A stretch of 64,000 nt of DNA from a virus (Duplodnaviria; Heunggongvirae; Uroviricota; Caudoviricetes), in the IMG/VR virus record IMGVR_UViG_3300028666_000001, positions 64,001 through 128,000 of that record, one strand, 5' to 3'. Below are positions 3,714 to 33,166 of the stretch, one piece after another. Numbering within the stretch: position 1 is the first letter of the stretch; each line of letters begins with the position of its first letter. The position numbers and the translations under genes were made by a program. Below the pieces are notes generated by a model. It saw nothing but the letters and a program-made list of their open reading frames with translations. It was not told the origin of the DNA and ran no database searches.

Positions 3714-6700
3714 ATGAAGAAATCTGCTTCTATCCTTGATTATTCCTATCCATTTCTTGATCCAGCCGTTTGGGATCATGAGAGGAAGCTTTTTGCCTAC
3801 CAGAAAGATTTTATTCTTCGTTTAATCAGTACGATGTATGAAACTTATAGTCTTCAGCAGCCTGAGACTTGGGTAGAGGATATCGTTATCATAGGTTCTT
3901 TGACTACTTCTAAATGGCTGTTCACTTCTGATTTGGATGTTCATATACGTGTCAATTTAGATGCATTTATAGCATCAAATATGCCTGGGAGTACCAAGGA
4001 ACAGGCTTTTGAGAAACTTGATCTTACTCGCAAGGAATTTGATCGTGCTAAAATCTTAGCTCCTATGACACAGCATCCTATTGAATTTTATTTTGAGAGT
4101 ATTGAATTTAAACCAAGTAACACAGCTCTCGTAGGAATCTATTCCTTAGCGCAGGATGCATGGGTTAAAGAGCCTATTACGTTTGATGCTGACTTGGACT
4201 TCGAAGAGTCTAGAAAGGACGTTGTAGCTCAAGCTGAGGCCCTAGCAGAAGAGCTAGATGGCAGCTTGGGTAAGATTAGGCGTGATATAAAGCGTATTGA
4301 TGAACTTGAGGCTGTTATTAAGGCTTGGGACCAGGATAAACAACAACTCTTTTATGCCAAGGTTGAATCTAAACTCAAAGCTATTGAAGCAGAGATTATG
4401 AAGGATCTGCAGCTTAAGCAGGAATTGGTTGATGCTAGACATGCTAACCAGGATGCTACATCTGAAGTTGAAATTAAATTTAAATGGCTTGCACGTTTTG
4501 GTTTCTTTGGAATCCTATCGAATCTGAAGACTCTTATGGAACAGACTGGTGGGCAGGTGACTACACAGGAACTTCCTTTGATTGAAAAGATTATTAGTCA
4601 AGGATCTGTAAAAGAAGCTAGTGATATGAGTTATGCTTATTGGGTAGACCCAGCAGGTAAAATTTATACAGTTAGACCTAATGAATATTCTAAAGATCTT
4701 TTTACCCATAGTGATTGGGTTGTTGCAAATCAGGAATTGCTTAAGGAACAGTATGGTCTAACTTTAGATCTGAATTGTTTTAAGATCATTAAAGAAATGT
4801 ATACCTCTGGGTGGGCTAGAATAGGAGATTCTGGACGAAGTGATATTGGGTATTCAATTTGTGTTTGGGATTTAGGTTCTATTTCAAATGGTGTGGATAA
4901 TGCTCTTGCTCAATTCTATAAAGGTGGAGAATTAATGGTTGAAGGTGAGTCTGACCATAGAACGGTTATTGTGGGTGATCCTTTTCCAAATCTTCAACAA
5001 GCTGTTAATAAAGCTCTACAGAAGAAAAGAATGGGATCTCTTAAAGAAGCTTTCTTAAAAGAAGCTTTTGAAGAAGAGCCTAAAGAATTAGAGACAGACG
5101 TTTGTGTAGATTTTGATAAAACTATTGCACATGAGGCAAAGTATCCAGCTATCGGTGAACCTATTGAAGGAGCTAAGGAATCTTTAGCTAAGCTTCAAGA
5201 TCTAGGCTATAATGTTATCATTTATTCCTGCAGAGGTGATAGTGATGAGGGTATCGAACTAATTACCAAGTGGCTTGATGAACATGATATGCCTTATGAT
5301 TCTATTTTCAGCGGCGATAAACCCTTCTTCAAGTATGTGATTGATGACAAGGCTATCCATTTCGATTCTTGGGATAAAGTAATGCAGAAGGTTGAGAAGT
5401 CTAATAAGACAGCTTCCTCGAATGTTCTTAGGGTTGAACCTTATGGTGGTGGTCCTGAGTTTCCAGTTCTAGTCAATCCTTCTCGTCAACAGGTTGCTCG
5501 TGCATTACCACAAACTGGTTTTGGTCAACTTCGTGTTATCCAAGCCAATAACAATTATATTTGGGATGCAGAAAAGGCTACCCACGATCATGTAATGGAA
5601 TATTTAGCAGAGCAGGGACTTGAGGAGTATGATCATTGTCAGACAGGTTATATTACAGATGCTTCTGACATAGATGAATTTTCCTGGCAAAAAGCAGCTT
5701 CGTTGCACGTTACTGCTAGGATTGCTAATAAATACTGGATAGCACCAGATGGTAAGGAATTTGCTTTTTCCCCATCTGATAGTAATATTGGTGGTCATTT
5801 AGGTTGGATACCAAAAAATAAAGATATTCTTAAGGGATATGGAATAGATTTAAATATTCATGGACCCTATGGGCATCATGCAATAGCAGATGATATGATT
5901 AAAGCGGGTTGGACACGAGTTACAACCGAATCAGATTATGATTTTGCTATGGAGGTCGCTGATATAAACAATCTTCCTCCTTATTTGGATAATTTTGTTG
6001 CTAAAAATTATTATGGTGGTGGAGTTGAGATTGATGATTTAGAGGGTAACTACCAGGATATTTCTGATCCATTTCCTAATCTTAGAAAAGCTATTTATCA
6101 AGCAAAAAGATTAAGACAGCAACCAATTGCAGCTTCTTTGAAAATAGAAGCTGATTATGAACATGCTTATTGGATAGATCCTAATGGTAAAACCTTTCAA
6201 GTAAGAGGTGAGGGTGTTACTGGTGTTGATATAGATGAGGGTAAAGCTGATACACATTTTAAATGGGTCCAAAAAAATAGAGAAATGTTGATAAAAGATT
6301 ATGGATTTAAACCTGTTACAAATCAATGGACAAGTGATCGTCTTACTTCAAATGATCTTATGGCAGCTGGATGGATTAGAATCGGGGATAGTTCTGGTGG
6401 TTCAGAATGGGGTGTTACTCTTAAAAGTTTAAGCCATGTACCTACCTCAGTAGATAGTTTACTTGCTCAGTTTGTTCCTGAAGGTGCTCAAATTACAATT
6501 GAAGAAGATACTAGATGGGAAAATCATGTCGCTATTATATGGCCTGTTAAATCCGTCCAACAAGCTGTTAATCAGGCATTGCAACAAAAAAGATTACAAC
6601 CTGTATCTAAAGCTTTCTCAAAGAAAGAGATTACAGCTCAAACTAAGAAAGTTAAACAAGGTGATTACTCCTGTCTCATGGCTTTAGTTCCTCATGATCT

Positions 6701-28354: not shown

Positions 28355-28426
28355 GTAATTAGATACTAGATCTAGTTGTAAACATGATTGGTCGTGAGAC
28401 TGACATGTATTTTAAAGGAGAAATTT

Positions 28427-29383
28427 ATGAATGACAAGCTAAATGTTGAAGCTTCCATGGAAGTTCTCTCAAGCGCACAGGTTGAGGAAAAGCTCACCCG
28501 TTTGATGAATTCCCCAGGTGGACTTCAGAAAATTGCACAACAGATGCTCTCGCCCCTAAAGCGCGAACTTCTGTACGAAGGTCGTATTCGCCAACTCTTC
28601 CAGACCTATAAACTAGCTCTCGGAGAGGAAGCCGTATTCGACGCTGATGTAGATGTACCAGCAGCCAGCATCTCGGTTGAAGGTCTTCCAGCACAGCTCG
28701 AAGTTCTCGCAGATCGTATTCGCGTAGAAACGTCACCTATTTCTACACGTCCTATGATTCGTTGGAATGAATCGAACTTCCGTAAATATGACGTTCTAAA
28801 CAGAACACAGGAACGCGCAAAAGCATCAATCATGCTTCAGGAAGATACTCGTGGTTTTAATTTGATCAACTTCGCAAGCGGTTTGACAAATCAGACACCC
28901 GCAGCATCTCTTGCTGGTACGACTGCTGCAACAAACAACCCATCGGTGATTCCAAACGGAGCACCTGGATTGTCAATGTACACCTTGGCTACCGCAATCG
29001 TAACCCTAAGCTCCAAGCTTTTGGTTGCCAGCAAGCTATACATCAATCCAATCACACGCAGAGACTTGCTTTTGTTTAACAATGCTCCTGCAGGTAATGG
29101 TGGACTTGGAATCTTCGCTCCTAACTTCCAGGACACAGCTCTAAAGGCTGGTCGTGTAGGTGGAATCATGGGCGTTGACGTTCTAGAGTCTGTCGTTGTT
29201 CCTTCCTCAGCCTGTTTCGTCTTGGCTCCAGCCGATTACCTCGGCGTGTTGGCAATTCGTACAGACCTGTCAGTTGAGACAATGAAAGATGTAAACAAGA
29301 TGGCAGATGTATTCGCTATCTGGGAAGATCTAGGATTCTTGATCCGATACGCTAAAGGTATCGTCAAAATCACACTTCCATAA
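28427..29383 (+). CDS. Major capsid protein (HK97-type fold expected)
   Basis: ATG at 28427 after AAAGGAG; 318 aa. LKRELLYEGRIRQLF, RAKASIMLQED, GRVGGIMGVDVLES and FAIWEDLG motifs; position after protease and decoration genes; strong hairpin downstream. Confidence 0.88.
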   Translation: MNDKLNVEASMEVLSSAQVEEKLTRLMNSPGGLQKIAQQMLSPLKRELLYEGRIRQLFQTYKLALGEEAVFDADVDVPAASISVEGLPAQLEVLADRIRVETSPISTRPMIRWNESNFRKYDVLNRTQERAKASIMLQEDTRGFNLINFASGLTNQTPAASLAGTTAATNNPSVIPNGAPGLSMYTLATAIVTLSSKLLVASKLYINPITRRDLLLFNNAPAGNGGLGIFAPNFQDTALKAGRVGGIMGVDVLESVVVPSSACFVLAPADYLGVLAIRTDLSVETMKDVNKMADVFAIWEDLGFLIRYAKGIVKITLP

Positions 29384-29387
29384 TCTG

Positions 29388-29430
29388 TTGATAAATAGGA
29401 GGGGTCGCAAGGCCCCTCTTAGTTTATCAA
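29388..29430 (+). terminator. GNRA-capped hairpin after the MCP gene (family copy 1)
   Basis: GAGGGGTC-GCAA-GGCCCCTC, extended by TTGATAAA/TTTATCAA. Confidence 0.7.
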
Positions 29431-29436
29431 TACAAG

Positions 29437-29465
29437 TTGCAAAGTTGATAAAGATATGTTATAAT
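29437..29465 (+). promoter_or_regulatory. sigma70-type promoter of the tRNA cluster, TTGCAA-N17-TATAAT with extended -10 TG
   Basis: Near-consensus, 20 nt upstream of tRNA-Ala. Confidence 0.75.
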
Positions 29466-29485: not shown

Positions 29486-29559
29486 GGGCCTGTAGCTCAA
29501 TCTGGGGGAGCAGGTCCTTTGCAAGGACAAGGCTGCAGGTTCAATTCCTGTCAGGTCCA
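29486..29559 (+). tRNA. tRNA-Ala(TGC)
   Basis: Acceptor GGGCCTG/CAGGTCC with G3-U70, anticodon loop TT-TGC-AA, T-loop TTCAATT; CCA not encoded. Confidence 0.9.
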
Positions 29560-29583
29560 CTGAACAAATTCAGTTTGTTTCGT

Positions 29584-29658
29584 TGTCTTGTAGCTCAATG
29601 GTAGAGTACTCGGCTGTTAACCGAGTTGTTACTGGTTCGAGTCCAGTCGAGACAGCCA
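29584..29658 (+). tRNA. tRNA-Asn(GTT)
   Basis: Acceptor TGTCTTG/CGAGACA, anticodon arm CTCGG-CTGTTAA-CCGAG, T-arm ACTGG-TTCGAGT-CCAGT; CCA encoded. Confidence 0.93.
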
Positions 29659-29670
29659 AACAAATTTATT

Positions 29671-29965
29671 CCCCCTGTTATTCGTAGCAGGGCGCGGGGT
29701 TTCTGAAGTGGGCTCGTTCCCATTAGTAGGAGCAACTCCAGCATTATGGCTGTGCAGGGCAAAACCCGACAAGGAACATAGCCTGACGTAGAAGTATAAT
29801 TGACGTATAAGCCCTGATTAGGGTATGCGCTCATTGTAGCAAACCTTAGTCAGGCACAATTTGATGACTAGGCAAGCCTCTTAACAATGCTCATTTTGGC
29901 CTAGTGTAATTTAAGTATACTCAGCAATTGGTCCTATAAGAAGATCTTATATCCAACCTGAGTCA
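29671..29965 (+). ncRNA. Candidate structured ncRNA of unknown class inside the tRNA cluster
   Basis: No credible ORF, higher GC than the surroundings, several helices (UUCG hairpin, GCCTGAC/GTCAGGC, CTAGGC/GCCTAG, and a long hairpin at 29919-29963). Confidence 0.55.
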
Positions 29966-29969
29966 ATTT

Positions 29970-30044
29970 CGCGGGGTGGTGCAGTAGTAGCATGTCGGCC
30001 TCATAAGCCGAAGATCGTTGGTGCAATTCCAACCTCCGCAACCA
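29970..30044 (+). tRNA. tRNA-Met(CAT), initiator-like
   Basis: CGCGGGG/CTCCGCA with C1-A72 mismatch, anticodon arm TCGGC-CTCATAA-GCCGA; CCA encoded. Confidence 0.9.
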
Positions 30045-30047
30045 TTT

Positions 30048-30146
30048 GGTGAACCTATTGTCTATGCGACTGGTGACTAGGAGGCTCTTTTGCAGGGGCT
30101 TAAAGATAATCTGGGGAATTGCTTCCCCGAAGTGCATAGTCCACCA
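30048..30146 (+). ncRNA. Candidate small structured RNA ending in CCACCA
   Basis: Two hairpins both capped by TTGC (AGGCTCTT/AGGGGCTT and GGGGAA/TTCCCC), enclosed by CTATGC/GCATAG; no T-loop. Confidence 0.4.
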
Positions 30147-30328
30147 ATAATTATTGCAAGATCGCTACTTGCCTACCCTTGAGTGCTAGTGTATATGGGG
30201 ATAAAATAGTTAACTAGCTCCAATTTTGAAAAGAAGTGTATTTACACTCACGCCTCGATTAGAAAAATCAAGAATTTGAATTCGATTCGAATTTTTAAAA
30301 ATCTAATAATCTTAAGGAGATTCAAATC

Positions 30329-32236: not shown

Positions 32237-33166
32237 ATGACAGAAAATTGGATTATAAAAGGCAACAACATAATTGAGCAGGTTGTATCAGATTACAAAT
32301 CTCCAGTTATTACAAGTGATTCAGAAATTTATGTTCGTTCTGGCAATACTACACTTCTATCAGCATCTACATTTGCTGTTTTGGGTGACACAGCAGTTAC
32401 CAATACAGGAGCTACAGTACTTAATGGAGACTTGGGTATTTCCCCAGGATCTTCAATCACTGGTTTCCCTCCAGGCACATATACAGGAACACTTCATCAG
32501 GCTGATGCAGCTGCAGCACAAGCTCACGCTGATGCAACAGCAGCAGCAGCAGTATTGATCGCTATGGGTCCTGGGACTGATATCAGTTCTACAGATCTTG
32601 GTGGTTATGTAGCAGTACCTGGAGTTTATTCTGCTTCCTCAACAGGAACATGGTCAGCTGGTCCATTGACATTAAATGGTGCAGGAACCTATGTATTCCT
32701 ATTCGGAACAGGTCTTACACTTCCAGCAAATGCTTCTGTCGTATTGCAAAATGGAGCAACAGCTGATAACGTTTACTTTGTTACTGGCACAACATTCACA
32801 TTTGGGGCCAATAGCACTGTCAGCGGAACAATCTTAGCTGGTACTTCTATTACATTTGGAGCTGCAAGTGTGCTTAATGGTCGAGCATTAACATATGGTC
32901 CTTCTGGAACAACAGTAACATTCCCAAGTGCAGGAACAGTCACTGTTCCAGCTACTTCTGGAAATGCATTTAGTTATCAAATTACTGCTATTAACTCACC
33001 AACAGCATTCTATGCAACGTATTTGCCATGGGATCTGGTTATTAATCATAGTACTGGCTTAATCTCTGGTACAATTTTCCCTAATAGTGTTGGGGAATTT
33101 CGTATTCCATTGCAAGCTGCCAATGATTTTGGTGTTGGTACAATGATCTTGACAATATTAATCTAA
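32237..33166 (+). CDS. DUF3494 ice-binding-like beta-solenoid protein with C-terminal putative Ig (He_PIG-like) domain
   Basis: FAVLG..AVTNTG.T...GDLG.SPG.SITGFPPG...A.A.AD...PGVY...VF...LQNGA.A.NVYF...GT..A..SITF...LNGRAL; then FSYQITAINSP...TGLISGT. Confidence 0.85.
   Translation: MTENWIIKGNNIIEQVVSDYKSPVITSDSEIYVRSGNTTLLSASTFAVLGDTAVTNTGATVLNGDLGISPGSSITGFPPGTYTGTLHQADAAAAQAHADATAAAAVLIAMGPGTDISSTDLGGYVAVPGVYSASSTGTWSAGPLTLNGAGTYVFLFGTGLTLPANASVVLQNGATADNVYFVTGTTFTFGANSTVSGTILAGTSITFGAASVLNGRALTYGPSGTTVTFPSAGTVTVPATSGNAFSYQITAINSPTAFYATYLPWDLVINHSTGLISGTIFPNSVGEFRIPLQAANDFGVGTMILTILI

What the first reader, a model, noticed from the sequence alone, without database searches (positions are those of the whole stretch)
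29671..29965. Densely paired ~300-nt non-coding region between tRNA-Asn and tRNA-Met
Seen in sequence: CCTGTTA-TTCG-TAGCAGG (UUCG loop); GTGGG/CCCAT; GGAG/CTCC; GGG/CCC; GCCTGAC (29781)/GTCAGGC (29849) enclosing CGTATAAGCCCT-GATT-AGGGTATGCG; CTAGGC/GCCTAG; and ACTCAG..TTGG..TATAAGA/TCTTATA..CCAA.CTGAGT (29919-29963). Frequent G-U pairs indicate RNA-level selection. Established: large ncRNAs of unknown function such as GOLLD and ROOL occur in phage tRNA clusters. I cannot match this region to tmRNA, RNase P or SRP hallmarks.
Basis: partly seen in the sequence, partly recalled or inferred. Interest (0 to 1): 0.72.

Follow-up and report, generated by a model that had tools for sequence, protein, structure and literature searches.

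The report
Phage tRNA operon carries orphan defence RNAs
The 311-base gap between two tRNA genes of this uncultured 192-kb soil phage holds three small RNA modules, not one large RNA. Two are gene-less copies of RNAs that in bacteria accompany RNA-cutting defence or toxin proteins, so the phage probably makes them as decoys, although that function is untested.

Summary
The region is not one ~300-nt RNA. It is a mosaic of three modules, each ending in AAUUU.

- **Module A (29668-29862).** It opens with a two-hairpin unit (single-stranded UAUUCC, then H1, then H2) with strong covariation: 95-99% of cells paired and 11-12 of 16 pairs with compensatory changes. The same unit is a stand-alone ~65-nt gene beside one NYN-RNase subfamily (PADLOC candidate defence gene HEC-09) in Acidimicrobiia and soil bacteria. 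A model built only from bacterial copies finds the phage copy (33 bits, E 2e-6).
- **Module B (29863-29912).** It matches the abiF RNA motif just under Rfam's cut-off (33.7 bits against 37). RNAs with this motif neutralise the AbiF toxin by direct binding.
- **Module C (29913-29969).** It is a spacer hairpin in front of tRNA-Met.

The complete phage encodes neither an NYN nor an Abi_2 protein. Best reading (about 0.5): RNA decoys or antitoxin mimics expressed from the tRNA operon. Expression, processing and binding are inferred.

Earlier notes of this scan had already found the NYN-RNA pair on other DNA. The orphan phage copy is the new element. The RNA is not in Rfam 15, and I found it in none of the papers searched.

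The parts
29437..29465 (+). Sigma-70-type promoter-like site (TTGCAA, 17 nt, TATAAT, with TG before the -10) ahead of the tRNA/RNA cluster. It follows the hairpin-plus-T-run that I read on the + strand after the capsid gene (about 29397-29427).
   Evidence: 10 of 12 matches. The scan listed this hairpin only on the - strand (29418-29399). The promoter region is conserved in relatives. Function not shown.
29486..29658 (+). tRNA-Ala (29486-29560) and tRNA-Asn (29584-29658), upstream members of the same cluster.
29668..29862 (+). Module A: phage copy of the NYN/HEC-09-associated small RNA with a phage-specific 3' extension. It begins right after AAAUUU and ends in ACAAUUU.
   Evidence: CM hits R1 118.6 bits, R2 53.6 bits, and bacteria-only R3 33.0 bits with E 2e-6. 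It is the only copy in the 192-kb genome.
29667..29692 (+). Invariant single-stranded UAUUCC (29667-29672) followed by hairpin H1 (CCCUGUUA / UUCG loop / UAGCAGGG, 29673-29692).
   Evidence: Invariant columns in A5. H1 has 6-7 of 8 pairs with compensatory changes.
29694..29742 (+). Hairpin H2: GCGGGGUU (29694-29701) pairs with AACUCC(A)GC (29734-29742), A29740 bulged. It carries a 32-nt insert (29702-29733) shared with L048; most of it (29698-29738) also stands alone in L025/L026.
   Evidence: The window shows G-C and U-A where relatives have A-U and C-G (compensatory).
29741..29796 (+). 56-nt core that is 94-100% identical in six relatives, although the neighbouring tRNAs are only 70-85% identical. 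It contains a second UGCAGGG and the GGG-AAAA-CCC hairpin. Function unknown.
29781..29862 (+). Terminal stem GCCUGAC/GUCAGGC enclosing a variable insert, then ACAAUUU. Its counterparts in relatives have quite different stem sequences but the same closing GCC...GGCAC-AAUUU.
   Evidence: Read (by eye across about 12 loci, not counted formally); MFE.
29863..29912 (+). Module B: orphan abiF-type RNA motif (hit at 29868-29905), ending in GUAAUUU.
   Evidence: RF03085 at 33.7 bits (gathering score 37), E 5e-4 in 1 kb and 5.5e-5 in 118 nt. 18 of 20 internal-loop bases between the outer stems (including the 3-bp inner helix) match the consensus, and the outer stem covaries. A second phage copy, L122:2209-2246, scores 33 bits with a CUGGGC/GCCCAG stem.
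29913..29969 (+). Module C: 17-bp interrupted hairpin ending in CAAUUU directly before tRNA-Met. It belongs to the class of spacer hairpins that precede tRNA-Met in relatives.
   Evidence: z = -3.75. 96.8% identical in L013/L014. Analogous hairpins with other sequences.
29970..30044 (+). tRNA-Met, downstream member of the cluster.

Best explanation
The gap is part of one tRNA/small-RNA transcription unit. That unit starts at a host-type promoter set between the capsid and tail-fibre genes.

The gap encodes three RNA modules, punctuated by A/U-rich AAUUU sites that also precede each tRNA. The modules would be released by the host's tRNA-processing nucleases.

- Module A is a gene-less (orphan) homologue of the ~65-nt two-hairpin RNA that accompanies HEC-09-type NYN ribonuclease genes in bacteria.
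- Module B is an orphan abiF-type motif, the RNA element that binds and neutralises the AbiF toxin.

I propose that both act as decoys or antitoxin mimics. Made early and abundantly, they would bind the host's NYN and AbiF-type RNases. That would keep these RNases inactive after the host's own labile partner RNAs stop being made, which would prevent abortive infection. Module C is a processing or stability hairpin for tRNA-Met.

Shown: the structures, the homology, the RNA-NYN gene linkage in bacteria, and the absence of both protein genes from the phage.

Inferred: transcription, processing, protein binding, that NYN/HEC-09 is toxic or defensive, and the anti-defence effect.
For: 1. Real RNA structure. 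H1 and H2 are 95.4% paired with 11 of 16 pairs compensatory in 43 distinct sequences, and no shuffle of 500 reaches that. In 37 bacteria-only sequences the figures are 99% and 12 of 16.
2. Homology to a bacterial RNA gene. Shared features are UAUUCC, CCC...GGG, the linker plus GCRGGG, and CYCUKGC with a bulged base. Model R3, built from bacterial copies only, finds the window copy at 29663-29748 (33 bits, E 2e-6) and 16 other phage copies, with no stray hits in 310 kb.
3. RNA-NYN linkage. NYN lies next to the RNA in two different layouts. It is convergent in Acidimicrobiia and co-directional (promoter, RNA, terminator, ATG) in soil contigs. In 30 loci fetched by NYN protein alone, the RNA sits at the NYN 3' end in about 19 of the 21 close homologues and beside none of the distant ones.
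4. Accessory distribution. The RNA occurs in 6 of 151 Acidimicrobiia genomes sampled, one copy each in the three genomes checked.
5. The NYN protein matches PADLOC HEC-09 (E 1e-40), a candidate defence RNase (10.1101/2024.01.29.577857).
6. Orphan status. The complete phage has no PF01936 and no PF07751, with working controls. Five related phage contigs have no NYN; one of them is 94% complete. tblastn finds none in any related locus.
7. Module B matches the abiF motif. The abiF-motif RNA RCd22 neutralises AbiF in trans by direct binding (10.1101/2025.04.15.648962).
8. The RNA is kept across phage relatives whose capsid protein is 74-98% identical, always + strand and inside the tRNA cluster. 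In L128 only the bacterial-type ~60-nt unit is present.
9. Precedent, from my own knowledge: phage PhiTE escapes ToxIN with a pseudo-ToxI RNA (Blower et al. 2012).
Against: - No expression or processing data exist; no RNA run holds this DNA.
- The host is unknown, so I cannot show that it carries HEC-09 or AbiF.
- HEC-09 gave no protection against the phages tested in E. coli. Neither its toxicity nor any RNA-protein contact has been demonstrated.
- The abiF match is below Rfam's gathering score.
- RCd22 needs two abiF motifs, whereas this phage has one.
- The phage copy of module A lacks the terminator U-run. It also carries large insertions (the H2 insert, the 56-nt core and the terminal insert) whose roles are unexplained.
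- The 94-100% identity of the core could reflect recent exchange by the homing endonucleases seen in relatives rather than selection on RNA function.
Confidence: 0.5

Rival explanations
1. Passive operon architecture. The modules are spacer or processing and stability elements that help mature the neighbouring tRNAs, with no link to host nucleases. The resemblance to bacterial RNAs would be shared ancestry without shared function.
For: Every module ends in AAUUU, as do the leaders of the tRNAs. Variable hairpins of unrelated sequence precede tRNA-Met in relatives. Module C fits this reading well.
Against: It does not explain an invariant single-stranded UAUUCC and junction that are shared with a bacterial gene linked to NYN. 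Nor does it explain an abiF-type loop conserved in 18 of 20 bases. Many relatives have tRNAs without these modules.
Confidence: 0.17
2. Hijacking rather than blocking. The phage RNA recruits or re-targets the host NYN (or AbiF-type) RNase for the phage's own benefit, for example host mRNA decay or processing of phage transcripts.
For: The same homology and orphan status apply as for the decoy reading. The phage-specific 3' extension and the 56-nt core could carry an extra function.
Against: There is no evidence that the bacterial RNA guides rather than restrains NYN. NYN upstream regions show no conserved complement to the RNA. The accessory distribution of NYN makes it an unreliable host factor to depend on.
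Confidence: 0.1
3. Relics. The modules are decaying remains of defence cassettes (NYN plus RNA, AbiF plus RNA) once captured by the phage, now without function and shuffled by homing endonucleases.
For: The cluster is highly mosaic, and relatives carry HNH-type endonuclease and other inserted ORFs in it. Bacterial loci also keep the RNA next to NYN remnants.
Against: Pairing is maintained by compensatory changes among phage copies. The unit is kept in at least 15 distinct phage contigs, and no trace of NYN coding sequence lies nearby. The single-stranded bases are invariant.
Confidence: 0.1
4. One reading: one large (~300-nt) structured ncRNA of the GOLLD/ROOL kind.
For: Dense pairing on the + strand over the whole gap. 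It lies in a phage tRNA cluster.
Against: There are no Rfam hits to GOLLD, ROOL or any large RNA, even at E up to 10. The pieces occur separately in relatives. No long-range pairing joins the three modules in the MFE or centroid fold.
Confidence: 0.03

Closest known systems
Small RNA accompanying HEC-09-type NYN RNase genes
   Same: The 5' UAUUCC, H1, the one-base linker, H2 with a bulged base, and the strand. It is detected by a bacteria-only covariance model.
   Different: The phage has no NYN gene. The RNA has no promoter or terminator of its own and sits inside a tRNA operon. The window copy has a 32-nt insert in H2 and a ~120-nt 3' extension.
abiF RNA motif, RF03085, and the antitoxin RNA RCd22 of C. 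difficile AbiF (Saunier et al., 10.1101/2025.04.15.648962)
   Same: Outer 6-bp stem, inner 3-bp helix and the conserved loop sequence. RCd22 shows that such motifs neutralise the toxin in trans by binding it.
   Different: The score is 33.7 bits, under the gathering score of 37. There is one motif rather than two, no Abi_2 gene in the phage, and no terminator.
Pseudo-ToxI of Pectobacterium phage PhiTE versus ToxIN (Blower et al. 2012; recalled from my own knowledge, not re-read here)
   Same: A phage-borne RNA homologous to a host antitoxin RNA, without the toxin gene, proposed or shown to block abortive infection.
   Different: It involves different RNA and toxin families. ToxI is a tandem repeat processed by its toxin; the RNAs here are single-copy structured RNAs delivered from a tRNA operon. 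The effect is untested here.
Type III toxin-antitoxin loci (ToxIN, CptIN, TenpIN)
   Same: In the soil bacterial group the layout is promoter, RNA, terminator, RNase gene.
   Different: There are no tandem repeats. In Acidimicrobiia the RNA gene is convergent with NYN. Toxicity and binding are untested.
Stable RNAs C and D (species 1 and 2) of the phage T4 tRNA gene cluster (from my own knowledge)
   Same: Non-tRNA stable RNAs co-transcribed and processed with phage tRNAs; function unknown.
   Different: Nothing suggests homology.

Membership tests
NYN/HEC-09-associated small RNA (defined here by models R2 and R3) | Invariant single-stranded UAUUCC directly 5' of H1 | tested here: met
   29667-29672; invariant columns in A5.
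NYN/HEC-09-associated small RNA (defined here by models R2 and R3) | H1 (CCC/GGG-closed, 8-9 bp, tetraloop), one linker base, then H2 (GCRGGG...CYCUKGC with a bulged base) | tested here: met
   29673-29742; pair counts. The window shows compensatory G-C and U-A pairs in H2.
NYN/HEC-09-associated small RNA (defined here by models R2 and R3) | Significant score with a model that contains no phage sequence | tested here: met
   R3 gives 33.0 bits, E 2e-6 over 310 kb, and it is the single hit in the window. Caveat: the R3 alignment was made with R2, which had seen phage copies.
NYN/HEC-09-associated small RNA (defined here by models R2 and R3) | Adjacent HEC-09-type NYN gene | tested here: not met
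   No PF01936 and no NYN homologue in the complete phage or in five relatives. It is therefore an orphan copy, not a complete module.
NYN/HEC-09-associated small RNA (defined here by models R2 and R3) | Own promoter, with H2 acting as terminator (U-run) | tested here: not met
   The window has AUUAUGG after H2 and lies 8 nt after tRNA-Asn. The soil bacterial copy L079 has a scanned promoter-like site and terminator. The strict scan of the Acidimicrobiia copy L171 found neither; the promoter-like hexamers and U-runs I read by eye in other Acidimicrobiia copies are.
abiF RNA motif (RF03085) | Outer stem, inner 3-bp helix and conserved loop | tested here: met
   Alignment; second phage copy with a compensatory stem change.
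abiF RNA motif (RF03085) | Score at or above Rfam's gathering score (37 bits) | tested here: not met
   33.7 bits in the window and 33.0 bits in L122.
abiF RNA motif (RF03085) | Located upstream of an Abi_2/AbiF gene | tested here: not met
   No PF07751 in the complete phage genome.
Type III toxin-antitoxin antitoxin RNA | Tandem repeats processed by the toxin; direct RNA-protein neutralisation | not testable with these tools
   I saw no tandem repeats of the unit (no repeat-finding tool was run). Binding and toxicity need experiments.
GOLLD / ROOL and other large ncRNAs; tmRNA; RNase P; SRP | Match to the family covariance model | tested here: not met
   No hit at gathering score or at E up to 10. 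ARAGORN finds no tmRNA.
Decayed tRNA array | Residual tRNA-like matches in the gap | tested here: not met
   No tRNA hit in 29659-29969 even at E up to 10. Relatives have tRNA-Pro before the element, not in place of it.

The most novel reading that the evidence does not exclude
Phage tRNA operons serve as delivery arrays for several RNA anti-defence decoys at once. Here one decoy would be aimed at an RNA-regulated NYN (HEC-09) abortive-infection RNase and one at AbiF. That would also imply that HEC-09 is a two-part RNA-protein system whose RNA partner has been overlooked.
Probability: 0.4. Interest if true: 0.85.

Novelty: new variant of a known kind. Interest (0 to 1): 0.72.

Why it matters
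If correct, this gives natural examples of RNA-based counter-defence against two RNase families. It would also offer a purpose for the unexplained non-tRNA spacers in this phage's tRNA cluster.

It provides a concrete handle on HEC-09, a candidate defence gene that showed no activity when tested: its conserved RNA partner may be needed to understand it.

The phage copies also mark which RNA features matter. The 5' UAUUCC, H1 and H2 are kept, while the terminator and the gene context are dispensable.

Tried and rejected
- **Known RNA families.** Rfam at gathering score and at E up to 10 gave only tRNAs and the sub-threshold abiF hit. ARAGORN found no tmRNA.
- **Cultured phages.** blastn of the whole cluster against 50,697 phage records matched only the tRNAs.
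- **Pattern scans.** An exact 43-nt pattern in IMG/VR found nothing. My first gapped pattern had the wrong gap range and returned five new loci (L062, L063, L064, L066, L067) that the CM rejected as chance matches.
- **Long-range closing stem.** A stem UUCC/GGAA predicted by RNAalifold on four compact relatives is broken in the window and in L010, so I dropped it.
- **Antisense mechanism.** I looked for a complement of the RNA's 5' end in NYN upstream regions and found none. Many of those NYN genes look leaderless.
- **Peptide reading.** The AUG just after H2 opens only an 11-codon frame with no ribosome-binding site, and all codon positions are conserved, so I rejected it (by eye).
- **Expression.** No RNA holder was listed among public runs; only rhizosphere, soil and peat DNA runs hold the stretch.
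- **Strict promoter/terminator scan.** It found no site at the L171 copy, though the L079 copy has both.
- **Not attempted.** Host assignment, RNA-protein complex prediction (the tool takes no RNA), and a formal pair count for the terminal hairpin.

Full report
**Setting.** The window is bases 64001-128000 of a 192,085-bp IMG/VR virus record with direct terminal repeats, rated 100% complete. ARAGORN and Rfam find tRNA-Ala (29486-29560), tRNA-Asn (29584-29658) and tRNA-Met (29970-30044), and nothing else at gathering score.

The cluster lies between a capsid-like gene (28388-29383) and tail-fibre-like genes. A terminator-like hairpin and a promoter-like site precede it. The promoter reads TTGCAA, 17 nt, TATAAT with an upstream TG, at 29437-29465.

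**The observation.** The 311-nt gap folds slightly better than shuffles on the + strand (z -2.1) and not on the - strand (z -0.6). Energy alone would not settle the matter.

**The gap is a mosaic.** The capsid protein retrieved 55 related loci. BLAST of the gap against them matched only pieces, at different places and in different combinations.

- One 56-nt stretch (29741-29796) is 94-100% identical in six relatives, while the adjacent tRNAs are only 70-85% identical.
- Relatives usually have tRNA-Pro before the element, and some have inserted ORFs, including an HNH-type endonuclease.
- Each unit ends in AAUUU, and the same short A/U-rich sequence precedes tRNA-Met in every relative examined.

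In the window this divides the gap into module A (29668-29862), module B (29863-29912) and module C (29913-29969).

**Module A is a conserved structured RNA.**

- A covariance model from six close copies (R1) found 18 copies in the related loci. All are on the + strand and inside the tRNA cluster.
- The shared part is the 5' end: single-stranded UAUUCC, hairpin H1 (CCC/GGG-closed, tetraloop), one linker base, and hairpin H2 with a bulged base.
- On 43 distinct sequences aligned to a second model (R2), 95.4% of cells pair, against 83% in shuffles and 32-55% in slid controls. Eleven of 16 pairs show both-side changes, and no shuffle of 500 reaches any measure. That alignment is fitted to the model, which favours the structure.
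- The MAFFT alignment shows the same compensatory changes directly.
- After H2 the phage copies diverge, but they end in a hairpin closed by GCC...GGC followed by ACAAUUU. The stem sequences differ between loci (judged by eye).
- In L128 the RNA is just the ~60-nt unit followed at once by tRNA-Met. The two-hairpin unit is therefore the core.

**The same unit is a bacterial gene linked to an NYN RNase.** A pattern scan of metagenomes and of one genome per species, filtered with the model, found two further groups.

- In Acidimicrobiia the unit follows promoter-like hexamers. In several copies H2 is followed by a U-run. The strict scan did not call a promoter or terminator at L171.
- A 207-aa NYN-domain gene (PF01936) converges on it, so the RNA's 3' end abuts the NYN stop codon.
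- In high-GC soil contigs the order is promoter-like site, RNA, terminator-like H2, then the ATG of an orthologous NYN gene.
- In other soil contigs the NYN gene has been replaced, after its first codons, by DUF433-DUF5615 or ribbon-helix-helix gene pairs.
- tblastn confirms a full NYN next to the RNA in most loci and NYN remnants in the rest.

**Independent test of the linkage.**

- I fetched 30 loci from 401 Actinomycetota genomes using the NYN protein alone.
- The RNA model then hit the 3' flank of NYN, convergent, in about 19 of the 21 loci with close NYN homologues. It hit beside none of the distant homologues.
- The RNA is sporadic, in 6 of 151 Acidimicrobiia genomes sampled. The three Acidimicrobiia genomes checked whole each hold a single copy.
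- The NYN protein matches PADLOC's HEC-09 over its full length (E 1e-40). HEC-09 is a candidate defence RNase that gave no protection in the published E. coli screen, and that paper does not mention an RNA.
- NCBIfam and the PDB sequence search gave nothing.

**Is the phage copy truly homologous?** A third model (R3) was built only from 37 bacterial copies, which are 99% paired with 12 of 16 pairs compensatory. It finds the window copy at 29663-29748 (33 bits, E 2e-6) and 16 other phage copies, with no stray hits in 310 kb.

**Orphan status.**

- The complete phage has no PF01936 match and no homologue of the NYN protein; the family search rang in 10 control genomes.
- It holds exactly one copy of the RNA.
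- Five related phage contigs, one of them 94% complete, also lack NYN.
- tblastn finds none in any related locus.

**Module B.**

- Rfam's abiF model (RF03085) matches 29868-29905 at 33.7 bits, just under the gathering score of 37.
- Eighteen of the 20 internal-loop bases between the outer stems match the consensus. These include the 3-bp inner helix, which is kept. The outer stem is different but still paired.
- A relative (L122) has the identical loop with a compensatory stem change and scores 33 bits.
- The abiF-motif RNA RCd22 neutralises the AbiF toxin in trans by direct binding, like a type III antitoxin (10.1101/2025.04.15.648962).
- The phage has no Abi_2 gene.

**Module C.** This is a strong interrupted hairpin (z -3.75) just before tRNA-Met. 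It resembles the variable hairpins at that position in relatives, so I treat it as a spacer or processing element.

**Interpretation.** Two of the three modules are gene-less copies of RNAs that partner RNase-type toxin or defence proteins. They sit in a unit with a host-type promoter and would be released by tRNA processing.

The most economical mechanism is RNA decoy or antitoxin mimicry, as known for PhiTE pseudo-ToxI (recalled from my own knowledge). This is inference. Expression, processing, binding, NYN toxicity and the host are all untested. No RNA run holds the sequence.

The rivals are passive operon architecture, hijacking of the nuclease, and relics of captured cassettes. A single large RNA is effectively excluded.

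**Relation to earlier notes of this scan.** After I had found the NYN link, look-ups showed that other agents had repeatedly noted the HEC-09/NYN-plus-small-RNA pair on other DNA. One had read spacers of another phage's tRNA operon as antitoxin-RNA mimics. I re-tested the linkage here. What this window adds is an orphan phage copy of the NYN-linked RNA together with an orphan abiF-type motif.

Noticed in passing
window 30045-30328: The non-coding stretch after tRNA-Met is also conserved at 71-85% identity in several relatives (L006, L010, L012, L013/L014, L017). It looks like a further structured RNA. Another first-reader note covers it.
   Followed up: partly
L122:1413-1512: The tRNA-Ala of a related phage contig spans 100 nt in the Rfam hit, with about 27 extra bases in the anticodon region. 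It may be an intron-containing or interrupted phage tRNA.
   Followed up: no
L053:2387-2708: A group I intron (RF00028, 58.9 bits) lies upstream of the capsid gene in a related 180-kb phage contig.
   Followed up: no
L122:1783-2108, L128:887-1201 (-), L014 about 5650-5970: A small ORF (~104 aa) is inserted in the tRNA cluster of relatives. It resembles the N- and C-terminal parts of window ORF 32237-33166. HNH-type zinc-finger endonuclease genes lie nearby (L128:1962-2504). This is a likely cause of the mosaic structure.
   Followed up: partly
L092, L089, L108, L081, L139 (soil metagenome contigs): Directly after the RNA and the first few NYN codons, the NYN gene is replaced by DUF433+DUF5615 or ribbon-helix-helix toxin-antitoxin-type genes. 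This suggests a recombination hot spot just downstream of the RNA.
   Followed up: partly
window 29741-29796: The 56-nt core repeats the junction motif UGCAGGG of the 5' unit and is more conserved than the flanking tRNAs. I cannot say whether this reflects a second protein-binding site or recent horizontal exchange.
   Followed up: partly
window 29702-29733; L025/L026:4976-5016: Most of the insert in H2 of the window copy, together with its flanks (window 29698-29738), also occurs on its own shortly after the capsid gene in more distant relatives (85% identity), so it may be an independent mini-module.
   Followed up: no
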